A DNA stretch of 64,000 nt from Elusimicrobia bacterium HGW-Elusimicrobia-1 (GTDB lineage: Bacteria; Elusimicrobiota; Endomicrobiia; PHAN01). This document shows positions 3,410 through 64,000 of this stretch, one piece after another. Within the stretch, counting starts at the first letter, position 1. Each line of letters starts with the position of its first letter. The stretch spans positions 4,024 through 68,023 of the forward strand of contig PHAN01000016.1 of assembly GCA_002841695.1 (NCBI GenBank), in the 5' to 3' direction. The translations under genes were made by a program, and so were the position numbers. The notes below the pieces were generated by a model. It saw only the letters and a program-made list of their open reading frames with translations. It made no database searches and had not been told where the DNA came from.

Positions 3410-5275
3410 ATGCTCAAAAAATGGGAATTTATCAGGCAGCCGGCGGAAAAAGATTCATCGCGCTGGCGTCTAAAACTCAAAATCGCCGAGGATGACGTCG
3501 ACAAAATCCTGGGCGAGCTGCCGGGCAATAAGGGAAGGCCGTTTCTGGTCGAGGACGGCGTCTTTGATTTCGGCGCGTATTTTTACAATCTCACGCAAAA
3601 CGACCACGCGGCCATAGCCGAAATACTCAAAAAGAAGTCGCCCGACGGCAAATGCGGCGGTTTTAACGAAGAAACCGAGGACGTTTTCGCTTCTCTGGCC
3701 GCCAAAATCGACGAATCCGCCCGCCTATCGCCGGTTTCTCAGGAATCCGCCAATCGTCCCGCGCCTCCTGCCGCGCCGCCATCCGGCCCACGCAACGGTC
3801 ATCACAACGGTAATAACGTCCCTGCTTCGCAGGCGGGCGCGGATGCTGCGGTCTCGCCGCAGGAAACTTATTCCGGCGCATTTCTCGTGGAGGATATGCC
3901 GCTTAATCCGGAGTATATTTTCGAGCAGTTTGTCGTGGGTTCCAATAATCGCTTTACCCACGCCGCCGCGCTCGCCGTGGCCAAGGCGCCCGGTAAAACT
4001 TACAATCCTTTCTTCATACACGGCGGCGTCGGCCTGGGTAAAACCCATTTGATGCAGTCCATCGGGCATTACGTCAAAAAAAACTTTCCGGATTTGAAGG
4101 TCCTCTATGTCACCACGGAGAAGTTCGTAGGCGACGTCATCGACGCCATAAGCCACGGCGAAAACAACGCTCTGAGGAACTTTTATAAAACCATCGACGT
4201 GCTTCTGGTCGACGATATACAGTCGCTGTCGCAATCCGAATCCATGCAGGACGAATTCTTTCATATTTTCAACCTGTTGCATCAGAATAAAAAACAGATA
4301 GTCATAACCTGCGACCGCCCGCCGAAACTTCTTAATATTCTGGAAGATCGGCTTCGCTCCCGTTTCGAGTGGGGGCTTATTGCCGATATGAAATCTCCCA
4401 CACTGGAAACAAGGGTCGCGATACTTAAGAAAAAAGAAGAAGCCGAGCATCTGGAACTCGACGATAATATACTGCTTTACATCGCTTCCAAGTTGAAATC
4501 CAATATAAGAGAACTCGAAGGTTTCCTGAAAAGAATAACCGCGTATTCCACGCTGACTAAGCAGGAAATCAATATTGCCCTGATAAAAACGCTTATGGCG
4601 GAACTTCTGCCCGGCGAGGAGAATCCGGATATTACCATGGCCGCCGAACAGGCAGCCAAGTCGCCTGTGCCGCAAATGCCGCCGCAGACAATTCCGAGTC
4701 AAAAAATACCCGAACACGATTCGCCCGAGCCGGAGCGTCCGTCTATGGATTCGCTTAGCGAGGCGGACATCAAAATAGTCCCCAAAGGCGTCCAATTTTC
4801 GCCCTCGCCGGCGCACACGATACCGCAGCCGGTTCATCAGCAGCCGTCCGTTCACGCCGCCGCGCACGCGTCATTGGATCCGACACTGCGTCCGGTTGAT
4901 GTGGTGTTCTTTTTTCCGTCGGGGAAAGAGAATGAACTGGCGAAAATAAAAGACAAGTTCGCCGAGGTCATCAAAAAACACAAACTCAAATTTCAACTCG
5001 TTTCCGTATTTGACAAACCATACGAAAATAAGGGCAAGATAAATTACGCCATGTTTACCGAACTCTGCAAGACAAACAAGGTCGGCATCTCCGTGGTGCT
5101 TGCGCCCCCGCCGGATGCGGGCATTCGGGAAGAGGATTTTGTCAATATTCTGGGAGCGATGATGAGCGATGAAAAAATATCTCTTCAACTGGTTCCGTGG
5201 AACGAGATAAACAAGGACTACCGCTATCTCAATCTGGCGTTGGATATAACACTTTCCGGCGCCGACGGCAAGTGA
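3410..5275 (+). CDS. DnaA-like AAA+ protein: DnaA domain III (including the RFEWGL signature) with non-DnaA N-terminal region and a ~230-aa C-terminal extension replacing DNA-binding domain IV
   Basis: NPFFIHGGVGLGKTHLMQSIG (Walker A), VLLVDDIQ (Walker B), RSRFEWGLIADMKSP (DnaA box VII) and ITCDRPP match DnaA domain III. No HTH domain IV sequence is present in any frame. The tail contains a Pro-rich linker and a distinct ~120-aa domain (VVFFFPSGKENELAKIKDKF...). An alternative TTG start exists at 3362. Confidence 0.7.
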   Translation: MLKKWEFIRQPAEKDSSRWRLKLKIAEDDVDKILGELPGNKGRPFLVEDGVFDFGAYFYNLTQNDHAAIAEILKKKSPDGKCGGFNEETEDVFASLAAKIDESARLSPVSQESANRPAPPAAPPSGPRNGHHNGNNVPASQAGADAAVSPQETYSGAFLVEDMPLNPEYIFEQFVVGSNNRFTHAAALAVAKAPGKTYNPFFIHGGVGLGKTHLMQSIGHYVKKNFPDLKVLYVTTEKFVGDVIDAISHGENNALRNFYKTIDVLLVDDIQSLSQSESMQDEFFHIFNLLHQNKKQIVITCDRPPKLLNILEDRLRSRFEWGLIADMKSPTLETRVAILKKKEEAEHLELDDNILLYIASKLKSNIRELEGFLKRITAYSTLTKQEINIALIKTLMAELLPGEENPDITMAAEQAAKSPVPQMPPQTIPSQKIPEHDSPEPERPSMDSLSEADIKIVPKGVQFSPSPAHTIPQPVHQQPSVHAAAHASLDPTLRPVDVVFFFPSGKENELAKIKDKFAEVIKKHKLKFQLVSVFDKPYENKGKINYAMFTELCKTNKVGISVVLAPPPDAGIREEDFVNILGAMMSDEKISLQLVPWNEINKDYRYLNLALDITLSGADGK

Positions 5276-5285
5276 CGCCTCGACG

Positions 5286-6941
5286 ATGAAAAAAACGGGA
5301 TTTTTGCACTCTCTGATTCTTTTTGCTTTCGCCGTGCTGTGGGTCGGCGGCGGTTTGTGGATTACGGTCTGCGCTACGCGTTCCTATGCGGCCGCGCGCG
5401 CCGTATCGGCGGCGAAGTCGGCAGTTTCTTCAGGGACGTCGCGCGGCATATATGAGCATTTCGCATCGGAGAAGACACTGGTCAAGATCGGACGCGTATC
5501 CGCCAAAACGGGCGCGATAGAGAAGCCCGTGACAAAGACCTCGCGTATGCCGGTGGAGTTTTTCTCCGCGGAGTTCGAGGCAGGGGGGGAATATTACAGA
5601 ATGTGGTATGCGGCGGCGTTTTATCTGGATTCGCTCAAGCATAAGATGACGCCGGTGGCAATCGGTTGGGTAGTGTGGCTGTTCGCGGGACTTTTTGCGG
5701 CGCACTGGCTCAACAGAAAACTTTTATTCGATCCATTGGATGCCCTCTCGTCGATCGAATCCTCGCCCGCCAGAATTCCCAAGGCCATCGAGGCCGCCGC
5801 AAGGGCGGTTTTCGACGCGCGATCCCATCTGGCGCTTCATTCGGTGCACTCTTCCGTGTTGCTGCAGGCCGCCAAATCCATATCTTCGCACGTGGACCTC
5901 AATCACGCCGTCTCGCGCATACTCGACATAGTTGTGGAGAAATTCCCCGACACTTCCTGCTCCGTGACGTTTCTCGACGATGACGGTTTCATAAGAATAA
6001 AAAACACCCGCGGGCTTTCCGCCGAGTTTATCAAAAAAATCAAGCTTCGCCGGGGAGAGGGTTTTGCGGGGGAATGCGTTGAAACCAAAAAAACCATAGT
6101 GGTACAGGATACCGATAAGACGTCGAATGCGGCCACCGATAAATTTGTCGCCGGTGAAAACATCAAATCGTTCGTCCACGTTCCCATAGTCGTCGAAAAT
6201 CGCGCCATCGGGACATTCAATATCAACTCGTACAAGAAGGACTATTTTACCCGCGACATTCTCAGCGTGGCCGCCACGCTCAGCGAATATCTGTCCGTGG
6301 CCGTTTCCAACGCCAAACTCTACGAACGTCTGCGAGATTTCAACCGGCGTCTGGAATCGGAAGTGTCCTACACCACCAGCGAATTGCTCAAGACCAACGC
6401 GAAACTGGTGCGTAAAATCAGAACGATGAAGAGCGCCATGGAAATCTTCGGCTATTTTGAATCCGAATCCCCGTCGACCGAAATATTGACGAAAGTATTT
6501 ACCAAAATCCGCGACGTTGTCGGCGCCGATTTTATAGCGTTTGTCACTTGCGACGCGGCTTGCGGACGGTTTAGGCCGCTTTTCAGGGTATCGGGTCTCG
6601 GCGATAACGAAACCGCTTTCGGCCGGACGGAATATGCGCCCGCCGAAGTCCCGCCCGCCGCCGAAGCTTTGGCGTCCGGCCGGCCCGTCATCAAAAATTC
6701 CCCGACGTCCGACGCTAAATGGAAGATAGTTCCGGAAGGCGTATTCATCAAAACGTCGGCGGTTTTTCCCGTTTTTGCCGGAGGAACCGCCGCGGGAGCC
6801 ATAATACTGGCAAATAAAATCGGCGAAGGTTTCGACGACGCCGACGCGGAATTCGCAGTTATGGCGGCTTCCCGTCTGGGCGTTTATATACACTGCGAGT
6901 ACCACTGTCACAAAAAAACGCCCGTTGCGGCGAAAAAATAA
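5286..6941 (+). CDS. Membrane-anchored tandem GAF-domain protein (no recognisable output domain)
   Basis: N-terminal TM helices (LILFAFAVLWVGGGLWITV, VVWLFAGLFAAHWL). The first GAF domain matches typical GAF sequence (...GEGFAGECVETKKTIVVQDTDK...IGTFNINS) and is followed by a second GAF-like region. Confidence 0.6.
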   Translation: MKKTGFLHSLILFAFAVLWVGGGLWITVCATRSYAAARAVSAAKSAVSSGTSRGIYEHFASEKTLVKIGRVSAKTGAIEKPVTKTSRMPVEFFSAEFEAGGEYYRMWYAAAFYLDSLKHKMTPVAIGWVVWLFAGLFAAHWLNRKLLFDPLDALSSIESSPARIPKAIEAAARAVFDARSHLALHSVHSSVLLQAAKSISSHVDLNHAVSRILDIVVEKFPDTSCSVTFLDDDGFIRIKNTRGLSAEFIKKIKLRRGEGFAGECVETKKTIVVQDTDKTSNAATDKFVAGENIKSFVHVPIVVENRAIGTFNINSYKKDYFTRDILSVAATLSEYLSVAVSNAKLYERLRDFNRRLESEVSYTTSELLKTNAKLVRKIRTMKSAMEIFGYFESESPSTEILTKVFTKIRDVVGADFIAFVTCDAACGRFRPLFRVSGLGDNETAFGRTEYAPAEVPPAAEALASGRPVIKNSPTSDAKWKIVPEGVFIKTSAVFPVFAGGTAAGAIILANKIGEGFDDADAEFAVMAASRLGVYIHCEYHCHKKTPVAAKK

Positions 6942-6999: not shown

Positions 7000-8178
7000 A
7001 TGCAAATCAGATTAGCCGACAGATTGTCGCGGCTCGGCACCGAAACAGCGTTTGAAGTCCTGGCCAAAGCGAAAGCGCTCGAGGCCAAGGGCAAGGAAAT
7101 GGTGCATCTTGAAATCGGCGAGCCGGATTTCGATACTCCTAAAAATATCCGCGACGCCGCCAAGAAAGCCATCGACGACGGATGGACGCATTACGGGCCG
7201 TCGGCCGGGCTTCCGGAACACCGCGCGGCGATAGCCGAATATATCTCAAAAACCCGCGGCATAAAAGTGCTCCCGGAGGAAGTGGTGGTTACACCCGGCG
7301 CCAAACCCATAATCTTCTACACTATGCTCACGGTGTTGAAACCCCGCGACGAGGTTATCTATCCTAACCCGGGTTTTCCGATATACGAGTCGATGATAAA
7401 ATTCGTCAGCGGCATACCCGTGCCCATTCCCCTGCGCGAAGAAAACGACTTTAACTTCGACATAAAAGAATTCAAAAAACTGGTTACGCCCAACACCAAG
7501 GTCATAATACTCAACTCGCCTCAGAACCCCACGGGCGGAGTTCTTCCCAGAAAAGTTCTCGAGGAGATAGCCGATATAGTTCTTCAGCGCGACGACATCG
7601 TCGTTCTTTCCGACGAGGTTTACTCCCGTATGCTCTACGACGGACAGGAACATTTTTCCATTGCGTCCATACCCGGAATGAAGGACCGCACGATAATAAT
7701 CGACGGATATTCCAAAACCTACGCGATGACGGGCTGGCGCGCGGGTTACGGCGTTATGAACAAGGAATACGCCGGCTGGATGACTAAACTTATGACCAAC
7801 TCCAATTCCTGCACGGCTTCTTTCACGCAGATGGCCTGCATAGAGGCGTTGCGCGGCGACCAGAGCGAGGTCGACAAAATGGTTGCGGAGTTTGCCCGCC
7901 GCAGGGATGTTATGGTCGAAGGATTGAATAAAATCCCCGGCGTGAAATGCAAAAAACCCAAGGGAGCGTTTTACGTGTTCCCGAACTTCAGCGAATTCGG
8001 AATGAAGTCCAAAGAAATGGAAGAGTTCCTGCTGGAAGAGGCCGGCGTGGCCGCGCTTGCGGGAACATCCTTCGGAGATTACGGCGAGGGATACATACGT
8101 TTCTCTTACGCCAATTCCGTGGAGAACATCAAAAAGGCGCTTTCTAAAATAGAAACGGCCCTGAAGCGTCTCCGCTGA
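7000..8178 (+). CDS. Class I/II pyridoxal-phosphate aminotransferase (aspartate aminotransferase-like)
   Basis: AAT-like N-terminus (LSRLGTETAFEVLAKAKALEAKGKEMVHLEIGEPDFDTP). PLP-lysine region YSKTYAMTGWRAGY. GGAGG upstream of ATG 7000. Confidence 0.8.
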   Translation: MQIRLADRLSRLGTETAFEVLAKAKALEAKGKEMVHLEIGEPDFDTPKNIRDAAKKAIDDGWTHYGPSAGLPEHRAAIAEYISKTRGIKVLPEEVVVTPGAKPIIFYTMLTVLKPRDEVIYPNPGFPIYESMIKFVSGIPVPIPLREENDFNFDIKEFKKLVTPNTKVIILNSPQNPTGGVLPRKVLEEIADIVLQRDDIVVLSDEVYSRMLYDGQEHFSIASIPGMKDRTIIIDGYSKTYAMTGWRAGYGVMNKEYAGWMTKLMTNSNSCTASFTQMACIEALRGDQSEVDKMVAEFARRRDVMVEGLNKIPGVKCKKPKGAFYVFPNFSEFGMKSKEMEEFLLEEAGVAALAGTSFGDYGEGYIRFSYANSVENIKKALSKIETALKRLR

Positions 8179-8400
8179 TAAAAAGCATTTGACATCTCGT
8201 CGATAATTTCGTAGAATGTTCGGCTTTCCCCGATAGCCGCCGGGTTGTAGTTCTTCCGGCGGTCCGACGAAAATATCCACGCTTTGCGGATGGGCGTCGC
8301 GGCGCCGCTTCAAATCGCTTTCCCGACACAGTCGTTCCACAATATCAAAAGGAGGTCGGAAACCCTTCCAAAGAAAAAGACGGGGCTTCCGGTAATAACT

Positions 8401-10701
8401 ATGAGTCAGAAAGAAATCGTGAGCGCATCGGCGCTGGCGGCAAAAACATCGTATCCATCCTCGGAAATCGCATCGGCCGAACGGCTATTCGCGGCATATC
8501 GTTCGATAGTCGTAATGCTGTTCAACTTCGTGCAATCGGGCCATCCGGGCGGGTCGATATCGATGGGAAGGCCGCTGCTTAACATTACCCTCAATAAAAA
8601 CACCAAACTCGATATAACGGACCTCGACCGCCCCGACTCCGACATTATAGGTATGGCCGCCGGTCATAAGGCGCTGGGGCTGTATTCATATCTGGGGCTG
8701 CTCTTTGAGATAGTCAAAATAAAAGACCCCAAACTTTTTGAGTCGATAAAACGCAAAATGCGGTTCGAGGACCTTCTGGGCTTCCGCAAAAATCCCGCCA
8801 CCGAACTTCCTCTGATGAAGAAATTCTCTTCCAAGCGGCTCGACGGACATCCCACTCCCGAAACACCGGGCGTAGTGGTGGCTACGGGAGCGTCGGGCGT
8901 GGGTTTCGGCGCCCTGGGCGGATATGCTTTTGCCAAAAAAGAGTATTACGACGCGCCTCCGACGATAAACATTATCGAGGGAGAGGGGGGAATGACTCCC
9001 GGCCGCGTGCACGAGAATCTCGCGCATTTCTGGGCGCTGGACCTTTGGAATCTTATAATTCACGTCGACTGGAACAACGCATCCATCGACGCCGACAATG
9101 TGTGCGCCACGGACAAGTGCCGCGGACAATATGTCAACTGGTCGCCTCACACGCTGGGAGCATTGCACGGCCTCAACGTAGTTTACGTCGAAGACGGACG
9201 CGACCCTTCAAAAGTCCGCGCCGCGCAGGATCACGTATTCGGCGAATTTATGAGCCGGAAAGAATCGCCCAATATGATAGTGTACCGCACGGTGAAGGGC
9301 GAGGGATACTGGGAAGGAAGAAAGTCCCACGGCGCCGGATTCAAGACGGACGCGCCGGAGTATTTCGCCGCGCAGAAAACTTTCGAGGACGCTTTCAACG
9401 TAAAAATGATACCCGCCCCCGAAAAACTGACTCTTGAAACAAGAGAAGAGTATCTTTATAAAAATCTGCTCGTCGTCGAACAGGCGTTGAAATCCGACAC
9501 GAAACTCGTCGACTATGTATTCAACGCGCTGATGTCGTCCCGCGACGCCCTCAATAAAGCCGGCCGCAGGCCCGCGGCAAAAAGCGCCGATATATCGACG
9601 GTTAAGGCGCCGTCCGGCAAGTTCTCGGAAACGAATCCTCCCGCCGAAATCATCCATAAACCCGGTTCCGCGGTTACACTCAGGGAATCGCTCGGCAATA
9701 CGCTTCATTACTTCAACGCTTACACGGGCGGCGGTCTTTACGGCTTCGCGGCCGACCTCGTGGGTTCCACAAGCTTAAATCTTATGTGCGAGGACTTTCA
9801 GAAAAAGGGATTCCTCACCTGCGAAAATCCCTACGCCAAAATAATTCCCACGGGAATTTGCGAAGACGGCGGCTCGTCGCTGATATCGGGCATTTCGGCC
9901 ACCGGACATTATGTGGGAGTGGGAAGTTCGTACGCCACTTTCATGAGCCCCATGGGATTTACGGCCGCGCGGCTTTTTGCCATCGCCTACCAGGCGAAGC
10001 ACGGCGCCGATATGGCTCCGATGATACTGATTAACGCTCACGCGGGTCTTAAAACCGGAGAGGACGGACCGACTCACGCCTGTCCGCAGACCCTTTCTCT
10101 GTGGAAGGGATTTGATAAATTAAACGTGAAAGTTGTCACGCTTACTCCCTGGGATCCCAACGAAATCTGGCCGCTTATGATAGCGGCTCTCAAACTTCGT
10201 CCCGCCGTCATAATTCCTTACGTGACGCGGCCGGCCGAGACGGTTGTCGACAGGGAAAAAATAGGACTTCCTCCCGCCGCCGTCGCCGCCGCCGACGGCA
10301 TATACCGCGCGCGCACCGCTAAAAAATCTTCGAAAACGGTGATATATCAGGGCGCCGAAGTCGGCACGGAACTGCCGGGAGTGCTTGAAGCGCTGGACAA
10401 GGATGATGTTGACGTCAACATTCTCTACGTCGCGAGTTCCGAACTTTTCTCCAATCTTTCCGCCGATAAACGGGAAAAAATACTGCCGGTCGAGTTCAAG
10501 AAAAACGCTATGGCCGTCACCGGTTTTACGATTGATACAATGTACGAATACCTGCTTTCAGAAGAGGGCAGGGCAGCGTCGCTGCATCCTTTCAAGAAAG
10601 GCGTTTTCCTTGGTTCGGGACCGGGTTCGGAAGTGCTCAAACAGGCCGGACTCGACGCCGCTGCGCAAGTCAAAGCCATAAAAGAATTCGTCGGTAAGTG
10701 A
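8401..10701 (+). CDS. Divergent transketolase-family thiamine-diphosphate enzyme (766 aa)
   Basis: Collinear with transketolase: SGHPGGSIS (TK GHPG motif), GEGGMTPGRVHENLAHFWALDLWNLIIHVDWNNASID (TK GDGxxMEG...DNxISID). Carries extra insertions and a longer C-terminus than canonical Tkt. Confidence 0.6.
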   Translation: MSQKEIVSASALAAKTSYPSSEIASAERLFAAYRSIVVMLFNFVQSGHPGGSISMGRPLLNITLNKNTKLDITDLDRPDSDIIGMAAGHKALGLYSYLGLLFEIVKIKDPKLFESIKRKMRFEDLLGFRKNPATELPLMKKFSSKRLDGHPTPETPGVVVATGASGVGFGALGGYAFAKKEYYDAPPTINIIEGEGGMTPGRVHENLAHFWALDLWNLIIHVDWNNASIDADNVCATDKCRGQYVNWSPHTLGALHGLNVVYVEDGRDPSKVRAAQDHVFGEFMSRKESPNMIVYRTVKGEGYWEGRKSHGAGFKTDAPEYFAAQKTFEDAFNVKMIPAPEKLTLETREEYLYKNLLVVEQALKSDTKLVDYVFNALMSSRDALNKAGRRPAAKSADISTVKAPSGKFSETNPPAEIIHKPGSAVTLRESLGNTLHYFNAYTGGGLYGFAADLVGSTSLNLMCEDFQKKGFLTCENPYAKIIPTGICEDGGSSLISGISATGHYVGVGSSYATFMSPMGFTAARLFAIAYQAKHGADMAPMILINAHAGLKTGEDGPTHACPQTLSLWKGFDKLNVKVVTLTPWDPNEIWPLMIAALKLRPAVIIPYVTRPAETVVDREKIGLPPAAVAAADGIYRARTAKKSSKTVIYQGAEVGTELPGVLEALDKDDVDVNILYVASSELFSNLSADKREKILPVEFKKNAMAVTGFTIDTMYEYLLSEEGRAASLHPFKKGVFLGSGPGSEVLKQAGLDAAAQVKAIKEFVGK

Positions 10702-42541: not shown

Positions 42542-42615
42542 GGGCCCGTAGCTCAGTTGGTTAGAGCAGACGACTCATAATCGTCGGGTCGTGGGTTCGA
42601 GTCCTACCGGGCCCA
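42542..42615 (+). tRNA. tRNA-Met (anticodon CAT; elongator type, could alternatively be tRNA-Ile2 if lysidinylated); CCA not encoded
   Basis: Cloverleaf read by hand. Acceptor gggcccg/cgggccc. D-arm gctcagttggttagagc. Anticodon stem gacga/tcgtc with loop ctCATaa. T-arm gtgggttcgagtcctac. G1-C72 rules out the initiator. Confidence 0.8.
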
Positions 42616-42698: not shown

Positions 42699-42773
42699 GG
42701 ACGGTTAGCTCAGCGGTAGAGCATTGCACTCACATTGCAAGGGCCGCAGGTTCAAATCCTGCACCGTCCACCA
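42699..42773 (+). tRNA. tRNA-Val (anticodon CAC), CCA encoded
   Basis: Acceptor ggacggt/accgtcc. D-arm gctcagcggtagagc. Anticodon stem ttgca/tgcaa with loop ctCACat. T-arm gcaggttcaaatcctgc. Ends with 3' cca. Confidence 0.8.
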
Positions 42774-59058: not shown

Positions 59059-60042
59059 ATGCCGGATTCAGTCAGAAAAAAAATATTCCGCGAACTTAAA
59101 AAGGGCGCTCTGGTGTCAGGCGAAGCCCTTGCCGGGGCCATCGGCGTGTCCCGGGCGGACGTCAACAAACATATAAAAAAACTCCGTGAAATGGGCTGCG
59201 ATATTCACGCGGCCAGAAAGTCGGGCTACATTATGAAATCCGGCCCGGATAAAATCACATTCGATAATCTCGAACTGGCGCTTTCCGACGATATTCCGGG
59301 ATTGTGTTTCGTCAATCTGACCAAAACGGATTCCACGCAGACGCGCGTCAAGGCGCTGGCCGAGAAGGGCTCCGCCGAATGGCTTGTCGTTCGCGCCGGC
59401 GAGCAGACCGCCGCCTACGGCCGGCTCCGCCGCCGCTGGGAATCTTCTCCGGGCGGTCTGTGGTTCTCAGTGTTGCTCAGGCCAAATATGGCTCCGTCCG
59501 CCGCGCCCGCGTTTTCGCCCGCGTTTTCCCTTGCGGTTCGCGCGGCGGTGGAGCGCGCGAGCGGAGTTAAATGTTACGTTAAATGGCCCAACGACGTGCT
59601 TGCGAAAAACCGCTCCGGCGAGTTCGTTAAAATCGCGGGGATAATAACCGAGATATCGGCCGATTCGCAGAAAATACACTGGCTGGCCGTCGGATGCGGG
59701 CTCAATGTTTCAAACAAAGTTCCGTCGGGCGCGCTGTTCGCGGCCTCGTCTCTTCTTGAAGCGGGCGCGCCGCCGTCCGTCGAGCCCGCGCGGATTCTGG
59801 CCGGGATACTCGCGGCAGCCAAAGACGTTTACGACAGGTACTCTCGCGGCGGCTTCGCGCAGTTCGTCCGCGAGTATGACACATACAACGCCCTGGGCGG
59901 CCGCGCCGTCGCGGCGGAAACTTTCGACGGAGAGACGGAAGGCGCGGTAAAAGGCGTCGACAACGAGGGGCGGTTGATTCTTGAAACATCGTCGGGGTTA
60001 AAGACCATAACGGCGGGCGACGTCACCATCAAAAAGGCGTGA
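59059..60042 (+). CDS. birA: Bifunctional biotin--[acetyl-CoA-carboxylase] ligase / biotin operon repressor
   Basis: N-terminal HTH (VSGEALAGAIGVSRADVNKHIKKLREMG). Catalytic GRxGRxW-type region (GRLRRRWESSPG). C-terminal SH3-like domain. Confidence 0.85.
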   Translation: MPDSVRKKIFRELKKGALVSGEALAGAIGVSRADVNKHIKKLREMGCDIHAARKSGYIMKSGPDKITFDNLELALSDDIPGLCFVNLTKTDSTQTRVKALAEKGSAEWLVVRAGEQTAAYGRLRRRWESSPGGLWFSVLLRPNMAPSAAPAFSPAFSLAVRAAVERASGVKCYVKWPNDVLAKNRSGEFVKIAGIITEISADSQKIHWLAVGCGLNVSNKVPSGALFAASSLLEAGAPPSVEPARILAGILAAAKDVYDRYSRGGFAQFVREYDTYNALGGRAVAAETFDGETEGAVKGVDNEGRLILETSSGLKTITAGDVTIKKA

Positions 60043-60089
60043 CGGCATTCCGGCTTCCGTCGCGATATTTTATAACGGAGACCAAAACA

Positions 60090-60728
60090 ATGGATGAACA
60101 CGTAATCTGGTGGAGAAAGAAAATACTTGCGCGGACGGCTAAGGCGCTGGAGGCCAACGGTTTTACCGCGGTCGCAGCCGACACGCTCAAAGATGCCGCG
60201 TCGTTTGCGGCCGATGCGGTTCCTGCCGGCTCGACGGTGGGGTTGGGCGGGTCTATGAGCGTGCGGGAACTGGGCCTGGCCGAAATGCTCTCGTCCCGCG
60301 GTCACGGCATAATAATGCCTCTTGCGGGAATGAGCCGCGAAGACGCTCTGGCCAAAAGGCGCGCGGCGCTTTCGGCGGACGTATATCTGGCGTCGCCGCA
60401 GGCGGTTACCGTCGACGGAAAACTTATTTTCGTGGACATGCACGCAAACAGGACGGCGGCCGTAAGCTTCGGGCCGTCGAAAGTGGTGCTGGTCGCGGGA
60501 TTCAACAAAATCGCCTTCGATGAGGCGGCGGGTATTTTCCGCGCCAGAAACGTCGCCGCGCCCATAAACGTAAGGCGTCTCGGGCGAAAAACCCCGTGCG
60601 CTGAAACCGGACTTTGTTCCGACTGCGACTCCGAGGGGCGTATATGCAGGGTGGTCGAGGTAATACTTAAAAAACCCGGCTCGACGGAAATATGCGTTGT
60701 TTTGTGCGCGCAAGATTTGGGCTATTGA
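60090..60728 (+). CDS. LUD-domain protein (LutC/YkgG-like lactate-utilisation family)
   Basis: Rossmann-like LUD layout (VGLGGSMS...ADVYLASPQAVTVDGKLIFVD...VLVAGFNK). Cys cluster near the C-terminus. An alternative upstream start exists at 60039. Confidence 0.55.
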   Translation: MDEHVIWWRKKILARTAKALEANGFTAVAADTLKDAASFAADAVPAGSTVGLGGSMSVRELGLAEMLSSRGHGIIMPLAGMSREDALAKRRAALSADVYLASPQAVTVDGKLIFVDMHANRTAAVSFGPSKVVLVAGFNKIAFDEAAGIFRARNVAAPINVRRLGRKTPCAETGLCSDCDSEGRICRVVEVILKKPGSTEICVVLCAQDLGY

Positions 60729-60822
60729 TTTGACACGACAAGTATAAATAAGTAGAATTGTGCGCAATAGAAAAAAAATGCCGGTCGTATTCCGGTCGGC
60801 GTAAAAAACGAGGAGGCCTGCA

Positions 60823-61005
60823 ATGGCTGAAGTTCTGGTAGTGGTCAGCAAGATCAAAAAGATGGTCAAAGAGTCCGATTTGAGAACCGGCGGAGATTAC
60901 ATCGATAAGCTTTCCGAAAAAGTCGATGCCATCGTCAAGGCGTCGGTCGAAAAAGTGAAAGCCGAAGGCGGTAAAAAAACCCTCGGAGCCGAGGATATAA
61001 TCTGA
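60823..61005 (+). CDS. Bacterial histone-fold protein (DUF1931/HBb-like, single 60-aa histone fold)
   Basis: MAEVLVVVSKIKKM...IDKLSEKVDAIVKASVEKVKAEGGKKTLGAEDII parallels archaeal HMfB (...IASEAVKLAKHAGRKTIKAEDIE) including the GRKT-x3-ED signature. Good RBS AGGAGG upstream. Confidence 0.6.
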   Translation: MAEVLVVVSKIKKMVKESDLRTGGDYIDKLSEKVDAIVKASVEKVKAEGGKKTLGAEDII

Positions 61006-61055
61006 AAAAGAGCCGTCCGACGGAAATCGCCGCGGGGGTAAGGCCCCCGCCGTCG

Positions 61056-62297
61056 GTGACGTTTGAAAGCGCCGCGCGGCTGATAACCTCGACCGTCCGG
61101 CGCCGGCTGCGCCCGTCGGGGGAAGTCGTGCGTCTTGAGGCCGCGCTCGGCCGCGCCGCAGCCAAAGACATCCGCGCGCGTATGCCGTCGCCGCCGTTCG
61201 ACAACTCCGCGATGGACGGATACGCCGTCCGCTCGCGCGATGTCCGTCGGGCCGTCGCGCGGCTTAAGGTCGTGGAAGTGATACCCGCGGGCAGAACGCC
61301 GTCTGAAAAAATCGGCCGTTGCGAGTGCGCCCGCATAATGACCGGCTCCCGCGCGCCCGCCGGCGCCGACGCCGTGGTAATGAGGGAAAACGCGTCGGCC
61401 GAAGCCGGCGGTTTCGTCACAATACTGCGCTCGGTCCGTCGGGGAGAAAACCTGCGCTTCGCGGGCGAGGACGTAAAAAAGGGCGCGTTGCTTATACCCA
61501 AAGGTTCGCTTCTGGGGCCCGCCGAACTTGGCCTTGCGGCCTCGCAAGGTCTTAAATCCGCGGCCGTTCTGCGGCGTCCCGTCGTAGGTTTTTTTACGAC
61601 CGGCGACGAAGTTGTAATGCCGGGCCGTCGGCTTAAATCTTCCCTGATATACAACGCCAACCGCTACACGCTGGGAGCGGCCATCGCCGAATCGGGTTGC
61701 TCGCCTCTCTACGCGGGGCATCTTTCCGACGATGAGCGTTCCGCGGCTTCCGCCATATCGTCGGCCGTCGCGCGCTGCGACGCGCTCATTACCTGCGGCG
61801 GAGTTTCCATGGGCGACTTCGATATAGTAAAAAAATCCCTGCGGCGTCTCGGCGCGAAATTTATTTTTGAAAGAATAGAAATGAAACCCGGGCGTCCGAC
61901 GGGTTTCGCGTTGTTGAGGGGCAAACCGGTTTTTACGCTTCCCGGAAACGTTGTGTCGTCTTTACTGTCCTACGAACTCTTGGTCTCGCCGCATCTTTCG
62001 CCGCACGGAAGCGGATTCGGACGTGTCTCCCGCGCCGTATCCGGTTTCACATACTCCAAAAACGATTCCCGCCGCCACTTTCTGCGGGTCAACGTGGAAA
62101 GCGACGACTCTCTCGTCCCGTCGGCGCGTTTGACCGGCGCTCAGGGTTCGGGCATTTTAAGCTCAATGTCCGGCTATGACGCGCTGGCCGTAATACTCGA
62201 AGGCCGCGTCTCTATACGGCGCGGATCGATAATTAAAATAATATCCCGCCGCCCGAAATTATCCCGAACCGTTACCACGCGCGGTTCCCGCAGGTGA
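61056..62297 (+). CDS. moeA: Molybdopterin molybdotransferase
   Basis: PPFDNSAMDGYAV. MoeA domain layout with GGVSMGDFD in the MoCF-biosynthesis domain. GTG start. Confidence 0.85.
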   Translation: MTFESAARLITSTVRRRLRPSGEVVRLEAALGRAAAKDIRARMPSPPFDNSAMDGYAVRSRDVRRAVARLKVVEVIPAGRTPSEKIGRCECARIMTGSRAPAGADAVVMRENASAEAGGFVTILRSVRRGENLRFAGEDVKKGALLIPKGSLLGPAELGLAASQGLKSAAVLRRPVVGFFTTGDEVVMPGRRLKSSLIYNANRYTLGAAIAESGCSPLYAGHLSDDERSAASAISSAVARCDALITCGGVSMGDFDIVKKSLRRLGAKFIFERIEMKPGRPTGFALLRGKPVFTLPGNVVSSLLSYELLVSPHLSPHGSGFGRVSRAVSGFTYSKNDSRRHFLRVNVESDDSLVPSARLTGAQGSGILSSMSGYDALAVILEGRVSIRRGSIIKIISRRPKLSRTVTTRGSRR

Positions 62298-62668
62298 AAA
62301 CAAAATTCAATATCTTCGACGCCCTGCTGGCCGTCGTTCTGGCCGCGGCGGCGTTTTTTTTATTTTTTTACGGAAGCGCGCGCTGGTCGGGAGGGCGGTC
62401 CGGCGGTCTTTTTGTCAGGGTGTTGTCCGGATCCGACGAAATCCGCTCCGCTCCTCTTGACGTTGACCGTATAATAAAAATCCGCGACGGCTTTACCGTC
62501 AAAATAGAAAAATCGCGGGTTTCCGTGCTTTCGTCCGACTGCCCCAAAAAAATTTGCGAGCATTCGGGAAGCATCTCCCGCGCCGGAGATTCTATCGTAT
62601 GCGCGCCGAATAAAATCGCCGTGACAATAGTCGCGAAAGACATAAATTATGACGCAGTCACAAAATAA
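62294..62668 (+). CDS. NusG domain II-containing (DUF1312) membrane-anchored protein
   Basis: TM helix followed by an ICEHSGSI...GDSIVCAPNKIAVTI pattern typical of NusG_II. Usual partner of Gx transporter genes. Confidence 0.6.
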   Translation: MKTKFNIFDALLAVVLAAAAFFLFFYGSARWSGGRSGGLFVRVLSGSDEIRSAPLDVDRIIKIRDGFTVKIEKSRVSVLSSDCPKKICEHSGSISRAGDSIVCAPNKIAVTIVAKDINYDAVTK

Positions 62669-63686
62669 GCCATTGTCGTCCGACGACAAAATCATCAATC
62701 TGGCCGCCGCCGGCGCCGCCATTCAGGCGGCCGAGTCGCTCATCCCCCTGCCCGTCCCGGGGGTAAAGCCGGGGCTTGCCAACGTCGCCACGCTGTCGGC
62801 CATAGAGGGGATGAACTTTGCCGACGCGTTTCTTGTCGCGCTGTGCCGTCCCGTGGCCGCGTCTTTTCTGACCGGCACATTTTTATCGCCCGCTTTCATA
62901 ATAAGTTTCGCGGCCTCGCCCGCCTCTTTTCTGGCGATGTCCCTGGCCGCCCGCGCCGGCGTTTTTTCGACTTACGGCGTCAGTATGGCCGGAGCCGTGG
63001 CGCACAACGCCGCGCAGCTTGCCGCGGTATATTTTTTGTTCGCCGGCGCGCTGAACATCTTCCGGCTGCTTCCGCTGCTCGTGATTGCGGGGGCGGTCAG
63101 CGGCGTGTTGACGGGCGCCGTTGCCGCGGCGGTCTTTTCGCGTTCCCGCGACGGCGAACCGGCGGAAGCGCGCGGAACGCCGTCGGAGGCGGCGGCCGCG
63201 CCGCCGGTTTCCTGGCGACGGCTTGCCGCCGCGCTGACGATTGTCGCGGTAAGTTTTTTTGTCGACAGGTGGGACGCGCTTGCCGCCGCCGGCGCGCTGT
63301 TCGTGCCGGCGGTATTTATAGGCGGTGGAATTGGCCTGTCGCGGCGCTATGCGCGATTCGCTCCGGCCGCCGCGGTTTTTTTCGCGCTGCCGTATTTATT
63401 GGGATCGGGTCTTTCGGTCGCCCTGACTTCGGGATTAAGAATAATTCTGGTTTTTCAGGCGTCCGCGTGGCTGTTTAAAAAAAACCCCGCCGGCTCTCTG
63501 CCCGAGATAAAAAATCGCGCGTTTGCAATATTTCCGTTGAGCGCATTCGCAAGGGCTTGGCGGATAACGGGGCGGGCGATATCGCTTGCCCCCGACGTCG
63601 CATCCGCGCTTGCCGCGGGAGATTCCGGGCCGGACAAAGAGGGATTTTTTCGACGGGCGGCTAAAATTCTTTCCGTGGGACGCTGA
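62649..63686 (+). CDS. Gx transporter family protein (heptaprenyl diphosphate synthase component I-like, Hpre_diP_synt_I)
   Basis: Polytopic membrane protein. Conserved pairing with the upstream NusG_II gene. Confidence 0.55.
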   Translation: MTQSQNKPLSSDDKIINLAAAGAAIQAAESLIPLPVPGVKPGLANVATLSAIEGMNFADAFLVALCRPVAASFLTGTFLSPAFIISFAASPASFLAMSLAARAGVFSTYGVSMAGAVAHNAAQLAAVYFLFAGALNIFRLLPLLVIAGAVSGVLTGAVAAAVFSRSRDGEPAEARGTPSEAAAAPPVSWRRLAAALTIVAVSFFVDRWDALAAAGALFVPAVFIGGGIGLSRRYARFAPAAAVFFALPYLLGSGLSVALTSGLRIILVFQASAWLFKKNPAGSLPEIKNRAFAIFPLSAFARAWRITGRAISLAPDVASALAAGDSGPDKEGFFRRAAKILSVGR

Positions 63687-63703
63687 TTCCGCCCGCCATT
63701 TCT

Positions 63704-64000
63704 TCAGTAGGTAAAAGGGATTGTTTTGAGCCCCGCAGTTTTGTGTATCCCGCCCCGTTTATCGACGATAACGCATTCCGCGCCTTCGATTTTTTCTATC
63801 AGCGCGATACCGCGTTTCGCCCCCAGCACGAACACAGCCGTCGACAGAGCGTCGGCGGTAAGGCAGTCGTCGGCGATTATACTGACCGATATTACGCCCT
63901 CGGCGGGAAAACCCGTGAACGGGTCGATGATATGATGGTACCTGCGTCCGTCGAGTTCCCTGAATCTTTCGTAGTCGCCGCTGGTCGCCACCGCCTTGTC
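63704..64000 (-). CDS. apbE: FAD:protein FMN transferase ApbE, C-terminal part (gene runs off the window end)
   Basis: YHHIIDPFTGFP and C-terminal ApbE-like sequence on the minus strand. The N-terminus lies beyond 64000. Confidence 0.7.
   Translation of the reverse strand, partial: DKAVATSGDYERFRELDGRRYHHIIDPFTGFPAEGVISVSIIADDCLTADALSTAVFVLGAKRGIALIEKIEGAECVIVDKRGGIHKTAGLKTIPFTY

What the first reader, a model, noticed from the sequence alone, without database searches (positions are those of the whole stretch)
60823..61005. 60-aa bacterial histone-fold (DUF1931/HBb-like) gene with strong RBS
The sequence tracks archaeal histone HMfB through helix 2 and the RKT-x3-ED loop (AEGGKKTLGAEDI versus HAGRKTIKAEDI). 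It starts MAEVLV, as I recall for Bdellovibrio/Leptospira-type bacterial histones.

Bacterial histones are rare and have only recently been shown to be major chromatin proteins in a few lineages. Finding one here is taxonomically and functionally notable.
Basis: partly seen in the sequence, partly recalled or inferred. Interest (0 to 1): 0.7.

Follow-up and report, generated by a model that had tools for sequence, protein, structure and literature searches.

The report
HBb-type bacterial histone gene, Elusimicrobiota
This is a real 60-residue gene for a short bacterial histone of the kind studied in Bdellovibrio (HBb); that kind is already reported as common in this phylum (Elusimicrobiota), so it is a correct call but not a new discovery.

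Summary
The ORF at 60823..61005 (+) is real. It encodes 60 aa, has a GAGGAGG ribosome-binding site 6 nt upstream and a near-consensus promoter (TTGACA-17-TAGAAT).

It matches the crystallised Bdellovibrio histone HBb/Bd0055 over its full length (E 7e-9; clade profile 1e-11). It matches the face-to-face (FtF) histones HLp and HTkC more weakly. An AlphaFold2 model (pLDDT 84) gives a histone fold with a short helix 2 and a 3-residue helix 3. The best solved-structure match is HBb (TM 0.79), and all 50 matches listed are histone-fold chains or histone-fold complexes.

The exact protein is PKN00943.1, "hypothetical protein" of Elusimicrobia bacterium HGW-Elusimicrobia-1. More than 600 relatives of 59-72 aa (nearly all 59-60) exist. 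All named ones, and 76 of the 80 genome loci fetched, are Elusimicrobiota or Endomicrobiia.

Published surveys (Hocher 2023, Schwab 2024, Hu 2024) already list Elusimicrobiota as a main home of these "bacterial dimer" histones.

Two details were wrong. It is not DUF1931 (no Pfam hit), and the loop motif is KKT, not RKT.

The DNA-bending nucleoid-protein role is inferred from HBb, not shown here.

Verdict: a correct identification and a new member of a known kind, of modest interest.

The parts
60730..60758 (+). Predicted sigma-70-type promoter of the histone gene: -35 TTGACA (60730-60735), 17-nt spacer, -10 TAGAAT (60753-60758). It implies a 5' UTR of about 57 nt.
   Evidence: 11 of 12 consensus positions. 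It was the only such site in 60500-61300 (shuffles give a mean of 0.4). It lies in a low-GC intergenic stretch (43% against 54% for the window). This is a consensus match only; no transcription data are available.
60810..60816 (+). Shine-Dalgarno sequence GAGGAGG, 6 nt upstream of the ATG.
   Evidence: sequence. A Shine-Dalgarno-like core was found upstream of the start codon in 70 of the 80 sequences scored: the window plus 79 orthologous loci.
60823..61005 (+). Coding sequence of the 60-aa histone-fold protein (stop codon included), 6.46 kDa, pI 7.9. Identical to PKN00943.1 of Elusimicrobia bacterium HGW-Elusimicrobia-1.
60826..60873 (+). Helix alpha1 (residues 2-17). It carries the S9-K10 motif and lysines K12, K13 and K16. 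S9, K10, K12 and K16 match DNA-backbone contacts of HBb.
   Evidence: AF2 model. S9, K10, K12 and K16 are invariant in 55 clade members. They are also conserved across 184 domains of the wider family: S9 in 170, K/R10 in 168, K/R12 in 171. HBb contacts come from PMC11317129.
60874..60891 (+). Loop L1 (residues 18-23), containing the invariant R21-T22-G23. R21 aligns with N22 of HBb, which has the most DNA contacts in that paper's simulations. It also aligns with the R of the MRVS motif of archaeal HTkC.
   Evidence: R is the commonest residue at this position in the wider family (96 of 184 domains).
60892..60966 (+). Helix alpha2 (residues 24-48, 25 residues). This is the short central helix. 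It carries hydrophobic residues L30, V34 and I37, which align with the HBb dimer-interface residues L31, I35 and L38.
   Evidence: AF2 model; alignment to HBb; HBb interface from PMC11317129.
60973..60996 (+). Loop L2 and truncated helix alpha3: K51-K52-T53-L-G-A-E57-D58. This is the clade's version of the histone RKTxxxxD motif (RD clamp plus KT DNA contacts). Helix alpha3 spans only residues 56-58.
   Evidence: K51, K52, T53, L54, G55, E57 and D58 are invariant in 55 clade members. The alignment places K51 opposite R51 of HBb, and D58 opposite D58. Helix alpha3 comes from the AF2 model.
61032..61050 (+). GC-rich hairpin (8-bp stem, 3-nt loop) between the histone stop and the moeA start (GTG 61056). 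It has no T-run, so it is not a canonical intrinsic terminator. Read-through into moeA cannot be excluded.
   Evidence: The fold of 61000-61075 is -30.1 kcal/mol, z = -1.29 against shuffles, so not significant. The terminator scan found nothing on the + strand here.

Best explanation
The gene encodes a single histone-fold protein of the alpha3-truncated family, 'bacterial dimer' subfamily, whose studied member is HBb/Bd0055 of Bdellovibrio bacteriovorus. It is the orthologue of this histone in an Elusimicrobiota bacterium (HGW-Elusimicrobia-1).

**Shown here:**
- homology to HBb;
- a predicted histone fold with a short helix 2 and a one-turn helix 3;
- purifying selection;
- its own strong promoter-like site and RBS;
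- a chromosomal housekeeping context.

**Inferred from HBb:**
- Two chains pair head-to-tail through the antiparallel alpha2 helices. The hydrophobic residues I11, L30, V34, I37 and I59 are kept.
- The dimer binds the DNA backbone at minor grooves without sequence specificity. Contacts would come from S9/K10/K12/K16 (alpha1), R21-T22-G23 (L1) and K52-T53 (L2). Loop L2 would be held by a K51-D58 salt bridge in place of the usual Arg-Asp clamp.
- The result is bending and compaction of DNA, as for an abundant nucleoid-associated protein.
For: **Sequence**
- phmmer against PDB sequences: HBb chains 8fvx_A and 8cmp_A, E 7.4e-9 and 8.3e-9, aligned over residues 1-60.
- The clade profile hits only alpha3-type histones: HBb 1.2e-11, HLp 5.1e-8, HTkC 7.4e-8. 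The next hit has E 1.4.

**Structure**
- AF2 mean pLDDT 83.9; helices at residues 2-17 and 24-48, plus a one-turn helix 56-58.
- Foldseek against PDB: ranks 1-4 are HBb (TM 0.78-0.79, rmsd 2.0-2.7 A, 43-46% identity), then HLp and HTkC. All 50 listed matches are histone-fold chains or histone-fold complexes.

**Conserved residues**
- 6 of the 10 main HBb DNA-contact residues are identical: S9, K10, K12, K16, K52, T53.
- N22 becomes R21.
- The dimer-interface positions stay hydrophobic.
- None of the FtF tetramer residues R49/N53/R55 is kept.

**Selection and expression signals**
- Third-position bias in substitutions.
- Lengths of 59-72 aa (nearly all 59-60) among the 120 listed of 606 homologues.
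- Promoter matching 11 of 12 positions, and a GAGGAGG RBS.
- An RBS core in 70 of the 80 sequences scored.

**Taxonomy**
- The exact protein is PKN00943.1, Elusimicrobia bacterium HGW-Elusimicrobia-1.
- 146 species-representative genomes encode a relative. Of the best 80, 76 are labelled Elusimicrobiota or Endomicrobiia and 4 only 'bacterium'.

**Literature**
- Bacterial dimer histones are 'predominantly found in Bdellovibrionia, Elusimicrobiota...' (PMC11390915).
- HBb is dimeric, essential and bends DNA (PMC11317129).
Against: - No Elusimicrobiota histone has been studied experimentally. DNA binding, dimer state and abundance are all extrapolated from a protein that is 43-47% identical.
- R57 of HBb, its second most important DNA contact, is an invariant Glu here. 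T8 is Val. The clamp Arg is Lys. Loop L2 is one residue longer.
- The window protein is the least basic of the 55 clade members aligned: net charge +1, pI 7.9, against a clade median pI of 9.2.
- Pfam, NCBIfam and PHROGs give no significant hit.
- No multimer prediction could be run.
- The two published HBb studies disagree on the binding mode: straight filament or bending.
Confidence: 0.8

Rival explanations
1. It is an FtF (face-to-face) type alpha3 histone, like Leptospira HLp or Thermococcus HTkC. Two dimers would form a closed tetramer around which about 60 bp of DNA wraps.
For: - HLp and HTkC are also significant matches (E 1.2e-4 and 4.8e-5 for the single sequence; 5e-8 and 7e-8 for the profile).
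- The fold is equally similar (TM 0.73, rmsd 1.5 A).
- The nearly invariant K44 aligns with the HTkC arginine that corresponds to the 'R48' tetramer position (alignment).
Against: - The three conserved FtF tetramerisation residues (R49, N53, R55 in HLp numbering; PMC12701072) correspond here to V45 (or K44), G49 and K51. None is kept.
- HBb is the better match by about 12 bits.
- The published survey places Elusimicrobiota histones with the dimer class, for which AlphaFold gave no confident oligomer above the dimer.
Confidence: 0.07
2. It has the same fold and dimer as HBb, but it coats straight DNA as an end-on nucleoprotein filament without bending it. This is the binding mode first proposed for Bd0055.
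For: Hocher et al. 2023 proposed this mode from a co-crystal structure (summarised in PMC11390915). The L1/L2 contact residues used in that structure (K52, T53, T22/G23) are kept here.
Against: Later solution data, a second crystal form and simulations favour bending for HBb (PMC11317129). Nothing in the sequence distinguishes the two modes. The loss of R57 and the gain of R21 could shift the mode either way.
Confidence: 0.1
3. It is a histone-fold protein with a role that does not involve DNA. It could be a small protein-protein scaffold, as proposed for DUF1931 proteins or the TAF-type histone folds of eukaryotes.
For: - The net charge is close to neutral (+1, pI 7.9).
- One major DNA-contact arginine of HBb is a glutamate here.
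- In most other Elusimicrobiota the gene sits just upstream of the nuo (complex I) operon, which could hint at another association.
Against: - The residues that are invariant in the clade are those that touch DNA in HBb and HLp: S9, K10, K12, K16, K52, T53.
- The clade as a whole is basic (median pI 9.2).
- No DUF1931 match.
- The nuo linkage is absent in this genome.
Confidence: 0.05
4. It is a chance ORF, or a phage-derived or mobile small gene, and not a cellular chromatin protein.
For: - One JGI record calls a homologue 'phage-related protein' (P0099).
- One 101.8-kb IMG/VR contig encodes a full-length copy (L087).
Against: - 606 homologues with conserved length, and third-position substitution bias.
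- No match in 50,697 phage genomes, and only 1 of 2.9 million viral contigs.
- The neighbours are housekeeping genes: uvrB, nadC, birA, moeA.
- The same gene order appears on 12 independent metagenome contigs.
Confidence: 0.01

Closest known systems
HBb / Bd0055 of Bdellovibrio bacteriovorus (PDB 8FVX, 8CMP, 9EZZ, 9F0E): 'bacterial dimer' alpha3-truncated histone
   Same: - Same length class (60 against 64 aa), and an identical N-terminus MAEVLVV.
- 43-47% identity over the full length.
- Same predicted helix layout, with a short alpha2 and a one-turn alpha3 (TM 0.79).
- S9-K10, K12, K16, K52-T53 and D58 are kept, as are the hydrophobic dimer-interface positions.
- A stand-alone gene.
   Different: - The clamp residue is Lys51 in place of Arg51.
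- Glu57 replaces the DNA-contacting Arg57; Val8 replaces Thr8; Arg21 replaces Asn22.
- Loop L1 is one residue shorter and loop L2 one residue longer.
- Lower net charge (+1 against +3).
- No experimental data exist for this protein.
HLp of Leptospira perolatii (PDB 9QT0-2) and HTkC of Thermococcus kodakarensis (PDB 9F2C): FtF alpha3 histones
   Same: - Same alpha3-truncated fold (TM 0.73, rmsd 1.5 A).
- The same S-K motif at the start of alpha1.
- An Arg in L1 (HTkC).
- T and D of the RxTxxxxD motif.
   Different: - The FtF tetramer residues R49, N53 and R55 are not kept.
- Sequence similarity is weaker (26-27 bits against 39 for HBb).
- FtF proteins form tetramers and wrap DNA.
Archaeal nucleosomal histones HMfA/HMfB (Pfam PF00808)
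   Same: The L2/alpha3 motif: GRKTIKAEDI in HMfB against GKKTLGAEDI here. The overall histone fold is shared (fold matches to archaeal and eukaryotic histones at TM 0.5-0.6).
   Different: - No significant sequence match outside that motif.
- Pfam score below threshold.
- alpha3 has 3 residues rather than about 10.
- alpha2 is shorter, and there is no tetramerisation surface for hypernucleosomes.
DUF1931 (PF09123) pseudodimeric histone-fold proteins (Aquifex Aq_328, Thermus 1WWI)
   Same: Bacterial histone-fold proteins.
   Different: - No sequence match.
- DUF1931 proteins carry two folds in one chain and lack the DNA-binding residues. This protein has one fold and keeps those residues.
- The PDB depositor's name 'DUF1931 domain-containing protein' for HLp (9QT0) is only a label.
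HU / IHF (functional analogue only)
   Same: A small, abundant, dimeric, sequence-nonspecific DNA-bending protein. This is the role proposed for HBb.
   Different: An unrelated fold, with no sequence similarity.

Membership tests
alpha3-truncated histones, 'bacterial dimer' subfamily (HBb-like; Schwab et al. 2024) | Sequence clusters with HBb/Bd0055. The category was defined by sequence clustering. | tested here: met
   - Full-length phmmer match to HBb, E 7.4e-9; clade profile 1.2e-11.
- HBb scores about 12 bits above HLp and HTkC.
- PMC11390915 names Elusimicrobiota as a main phylum of this category.
alpha3-truncated histones, 'bacterial dimer' subfamily (HBb-like; Schwab et al. 2024) | A single histone fold with no other domain, alpha3 of only 3-4 residues, and alpha2 4-5 residues shorter than in nucleosomal histones. 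| tested here: met
   - 60 aa in all.
- AF2 model: alpha1 2-17, alpha2 24-48 (25 residues), alpha3 56-58; pLDDT 83.9.
- Best solved-structure matches are HBb, HLp and HTkC.
alpha3-truncated histones, 'bacterial dimer' subfamily (HBb-like; Schwab et al. 2024) | RKTxxxxD (RxTxxxxD) motif in L2/alpha3, the RD clamp. | tested here: inconclusive
   - The motif here is K51-K52-T53-x4-D58. T and D are kept.
- The Arg is Lys in all 55 clade members.
- Close cluster representatives have GKRKT with Arg (P0123, P0124, P0142).
- This is a conservative change. Whether Lys forms the clamp is untested.
alpha3-truncated histones, 'bacterial dimer' subfamily (HBb-like; Schwab et al. 2024) | Conserved Ser-Lys at the start of alpha1, and alpha1 lysines. 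| tested here: met
   S9, K10, K12 and K16 are invariant, and K13 nearly so. The same positions are conserved across 184 domains of the wider family.
alpha3-truncated histones, 'bacterial dimer' subfamily (HBb-like; Schwab et al. 2024) | Homodimer is the largest oligomer; binds and bends DNA; abundant in the cell. | not testable with these tools
   Only monomer prediction was available, and only for sequences of the window or of search hits. There are no expression or biochemical data.
FtF (face-to-face) alpha3 histones (HLp, HTkC) | Conserved tetramerisation residues R49, N53 and R55 (HLp numbering). | tested here: not met
   Anchored on the RxT motif, these positions are V45 (or K44), G49 and K51 here. 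All are invariant or nearly so in the clade.
DUF1931 (Pfam PF09123) | Match to the PF09123 profile; pseudodimer of two histone folds in one chain. | tested here: not met
   No PF09123 hit at E <= 10 for the protein, or at E <= 1 for any of 55 clade members. The protein has a single 60-aa fold.
Archaeal/eukaryotic-type histone fold, Pfam PF00808 (CBFD_NFYB_HMF) | Score at or above the Pfam gathering cut-off (21.4 bits); full-length alpha3. | tested here: not met
   - 13.2 bits, E 0.11, covering residues 30-59 only.
- Only 7 of 55 clade members match at all, best E 0.02.
- alpha3 is truncated.
- The fold is nevertheless a histone fold, by structure comparison.
ZZ histones / phage histones (other alpha3 subfamilies) | N-terminal ZZ zinc-finger domain; or encoded by phages. 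| tested here: not met
   - No extra domain in the 60-aa protein.
- No match in 50,697 phage records; 1 of 2.9 million viral contigs.
- The PHROGs best hit has E 0.1.
- The genomic context is chromosomal.

The most novel reading that the evidence does not exclude
The Elusimicrobiota clade differs from HBb at several positions that are invariant within the clade: Lys in place of the clamp Arg, an extra Gly in loop L2, Glu in place of the DNA-contacting Arg57, Arg in L1, and a conserved Lys44. The clade might therefore bind DNA or assemble differently from HBb, for example by minor-groove insertion of the L1 arginine as in archaeal and eukaryotic histones, or by a higher-order assembly. It might also be the main chromatin protein of a whole phylum. 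In most members the gene is kept directly upstream of the respiratory complex I operon.
Probability: 0.15. Interest if true: 0.55.

Novelty: new member of a known kind. Interest (0 to 1): 0.3.

Why it matters
Bacterial histones are rare overall. A published survey found them in about 2% of bacterial genomes (PMC10627809). Here, the clade profile found only 391 clusters at 50% identity among 1.84 billion representative proteins.

Only two bacterial histones, HBb and HLp, have been characterised. This gene confirms that an uncultured groundwater Elusimicrobiota bacterium carries the HBb-type histone with strong expression signals.

Standard annotation misses the whole clade. NCBI calls it "hypothetical protein", and Pfam, NCBIfam and PHROGs give nothing above threshold. 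That is a practical annotation gap.

It opens no new question. The presence of this histone class in Elusimicrobiota is already published. The clade's sequence differences from HBb (KKT clamp, E57, R21) make it a reasonable third target for biochemistry.

Tried and rejected
**Profile libraries**
- Pfam, NCBIfam and PHROGs gave no significant hit.
- The DUF1931 label is rejected.

**Comparison with HMfB**
- A clade profile against HMfB aligned only 17 columns, probability 4%.
- tblastn of HMfB against the window gave E 0.48.
- The clade profile against PDB sequences did not reach any archaeal nucleosomal histone at E <= 10.
- The link to histones therefore runs through HBb and the fold, not through HMfB.

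**Phage or mobile origin**
- No phage record matched, and only one viral contig did. Rejected.

**Conserved operon partner**
- The window's neighbours (LUD-domain gene, moeA) are shared only with a few Endomicrobiia-like genomes. There is no evidence of functional coupling.

**Other nucleoid proteins**
- HU and IHF were not found in the window or in the fetched flanks. This says nothing about the rest of the genome.

**Terminator**
- A GC-rich hairpin lies downstream without a T-run and is not significant against shuffles.

- No dimer or tetramer prediction is possible with the tool.
- The afdb50 fold library was unavailable.

Full report
**1. Observation**

It runs from ATG 60823 to TGA 61003-61005 on the + strand and encodes 60 aa: MAEVLVVVSKIKKMVKESDLRTGGDYIDKLSEKVDAIVKASVEKVKAEGGKKTLGAEDII.

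- GAGGAGG lies at 60810-60816, 6 nt before the ATG.
- A promoter-like site, TTGACA-17-TAGAAT at 60730-60758, matches 11 of 12 positions. It starts 2 nt after the stop of the upstream LUD-domain gene. The gene therefore appears to have its own strong signals.
- The intergenic stretch is 43% GC against 54% for the window.
- Downstream, a GC-rich hairpin (61032-61050) without a T-run precedes moeA (GTG 61056). It is not significant against shuffles.
- The long antisense ORFs over this region (59829..60869 and 60897..61721, minus strand) have no support and are typical of GC-rich DNA.

**2. It is a real, conserved gene**

- 606 database proteins match at E <= 1e-3. The 120 listed are 59-72 aa (nearly all 59-60) and 68-92% identical. 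Wherever a source names an organism, it is Elusimicrobia, Elusimicrobiota or Endomicrobiia (one record says only 'bacterium'), and the protein is usually called 'hypothetical protein'.
- The exact sequence is PKN00943.1, 'hypothetical protein CVU77_07940' of Elusimicrobia bacterium HGW-Elusimicrobia-1. It occurs on 12 metagenome contigs. The six places examined share the window's gene order wherever flanking sequence is present: uvrB, nadC, birA, LUD-domain gene, histone, moeA, NusG_II-domain gene, Hpre_diP_synt_I gene, apbE.
- Against seven orthologues, nucleotide differences fall mainly on third codon positions, e.g. 9/8/37 and 8/3/24.
- In the species-representative genome collection, 146 genomes encode a confirmed relative. 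Of the best 80, 76 are labelled Elusimicrobiota or Endomicrobiia and 4 only 'bacterium'.
- 70 of the 80 sequences scored (the window plus 79 loci) have a Shine-Dalgarno core upstream.

**3. What it is**

Curated profile libraries fail on this protein.
- Pfam gives only CBFD_NFYB_HMF at 13.2 bits (cut-off 21.4, E 0.11) and nothing for DUF1931.
- Among 55 clade members, only 7 give even a sub-threshold PF00808 hit.
- NCBIfam and PHROGs give nothing.

Solved structures settle the question.
- The protein matches the sequence of the Bdellovibrio histone HBb/Bd0055 (8FVX, 8CMP) over its full length at E 7.4e-9. It matches HTkC (9F2C) at 4.8e-5 and HLp (9QT0) at 1.2e-4.
- A profile of the clade hits only these three: 1.2e-11, 7.4e-8 and 5.1e-8. 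The next hit has E 1.4.
- An AF2 model built from a 55-sequence alignment (mean pLDDT 83.9) has helices at 2-17 and 24-48 and a one-turn helix at 56-58. This is the short-alpha2, truncated-alpha3 layout that defines 'alpha3 histones' (PMC11390915).
- Foldseek against the PDB ranks HBb first (TM 0.78-0.79, rmsd 2.0-2.7 A), then HLp and HTkC. The remaining listed matches are archaeal and eukaryotic histones, NF-Y and TAFs. All 50 listed matches are histone-fold chains or histone-fold complexes.

**4. Subfamily**

FtF histones are defined by a tetramer interface with conserved R49, N53 and R55 in HLp numbering (PMC12701072). Anchored on the RxT motif, these positions are V45 (or K44), G49 and K51 here. 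The FtF features are therefore not met.

HBb is the better sequence match, by about 12 bits. Schwab et al. define the 'bacterial dimer' category by sequence clustering with HBb and list Elusimicrobiota among its main phyla. Hu et al. and Hocher et al. also mention Elusimicrobia. The protein is therefore a member of that category.

DUF1931 is a different family of pseudodimers that lack the DNA-binding residues. It is not matched.

**5. Mechanism (inferred from HBb)**

The main DNA contacts of HBb are N22, R57, S9, T53, T8, S24, K10, K12, K52 and K16 (PMC11317129).
- Identical here, and invariant in the clade: S9, K10, K12, K16, K52, T53.
- Changed: N22 to R21, S24 to G23, T8 to V8, R57 to E57.

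The HBb dimer-interface residues V11, L31, I35, L38 and I59 correspond to I11, L30, V34, I37 and I59.

The RD clamp R51-D58 becomes K51-D58. The Lys is invariant in the 55 clade members, while near relatives in the representative library have GKRKT with Arg.

Arg at the L1 position is the commonest state in the wider family (96 of 184 domains). It aligns with the R of the RVS motif of HTkC.

I therefore infer a head-to-tail homodimer that contacts DNA phosphates at minor grooves through alpha1, L1 and L2, and that bends or compacts DNA without sequence specificity, acting as a nucleoid-associated protein.

Points against this inference:
- The window protein is the least basic of the clade (net +1, pI 7.9; clade median pI 9.2).
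- R57 is lost.
- No Elusimicrobiota histone has been tested experimentally.

**6. Rivals**

- FtF-like tetramer: the defining residues are absent.
- Straight-filament binding, as first proposed for Bd0055: cannot be told apart from bending by sequence.
- A role that does not involve DNA: unlikely, because the invariant residues are the DNA-contact residues.
- Phage or mobile origin, or a spurious ORF: rejected. No phage record matches, only one of 2.9 million viral contigs does, and the context is housekeeping.

**7. Context in relatives**

The window's gene order is shared only with a few Endomicrobiia-like genomes (L081, L069, L082, L086, L036).

Most other Elusimicrobiota show a different arrangement.
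- In 59 of the 67 loci with at least 2.5 kb of downstream sequence, the histone gene lies 0.4-1.6 kb upstream of nuoB, on the same strand, within a nuoA-B-C-D cluster. A methyltransferase gene often lies between them.
- In 39 loci a NarL-type response regulator lies divergently upstream.
- The window has no nuo genes.

**8. Rarity and novelty**

With the clade profile, only 391 clusters (50% identity) among 1.84 billion representative proteins match at E <= 1e-3, and 41 at E <= 1e-10. The family is rare overall. Within Elusimicrobiota it is common, and this is already published.

The finding is a correct identification of a new member of a known kind. The DUF1931 label and the 'RKT' reading are wrong, and the taxonomic surprise is overstated.

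Its practical value is twofold. It flags an annotation gap, and it points to clade-specific substitutions worth testing. Interest: 0.3.

Noticed in passing
L007-L086 (e.g. L032:6001-9324; histone at 6001-6177, nuoA 7184-7540, nuoB 7545-8093, nuoC 8094-8666): In 59 of the 67 Elusimicrobiota species-representative loci with at least 2.5 kb of downstream sequence, the histone gene lies on the same strand 392-1615 nt upstream of nuoB, within a nuoA-B-C-D (complex I) cluster. A methyltransferase gene often lies between them. In 39 loci a NarL/LuxR-type response regulator lies divergently upstream. The window's lineage lacks this arrangement. I know of no report of this linkage, and its meaning (co-regulation or mere conserved gene order) is open.
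   Followed up: partly
L087:4116-5123 (IMGVR_UViG_3300032401_001693, 101.8 kb): This is the only viral-collection contig with a relative. It encodes a full-length 59-aa Elusimicrobiota-type histone (4944-5123). Directly upstream is a 269-aa ORF with a Cys-rich, zinc-finger-like C-terminus (CDDCGY...CCMCHKDLCEKC...CKDC) and no Pfam hit. The arrangement recalls the fused 'ZZ histones'. The contig may be a large phage that took up a host histone, or a misclassified cellular contig.
   Followed up: partly
Representative-library hits P0125, P0140, P0146, P0148, P0150, P0152, P0153 and others: Many relatives of 118-150 aa match the 60-position profile twice. They are tandem doublets of the alpha3-type histone fold in one chain. 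Their organisms are unknown because the library carries no names.
   Followed up: no
window 62294-64000: Downstream of moeA lies a cluster of three genes: a NusG_II-domain gene (62294-62668), a heptaprenyl diphosphate synthase component I-like membrane protein gene (62649-63686), and a convergent ApbE gene on the minus strand from 63704. The same trio follows the histone-moeA pair in L081 and partly in L036 and L086.
   Followed up: partly
window 42542-42615 and 42699-42770 (+): Two tRNA genes are the only Rfam matches in the 64-kb window. There is no rRNA, so taxonomy had to come from protein matches.
   Followed up: no
window 59829-60869 (-) and 60897-61721 (-): Long antisense ORFs (346 and 274 aa) overlap the birA and LUD-domain genes, the histone gene and moeA. 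They have no support and are artefacts of the GC-rich composition. In some metagenome records similar antisense ORFs were called as genes in place of nadC or uvrB (L002, L004).
   Followed up: partly
window 60039-60042: The LUD-domain ORF, as listed from its first in-frame start codon (GTG 60039), overlaps the end of birA by 4 nt. Metagenome gene callers start it at window position 60090 (212 aa). The true start is therefore uncertain.
   Followed up: no
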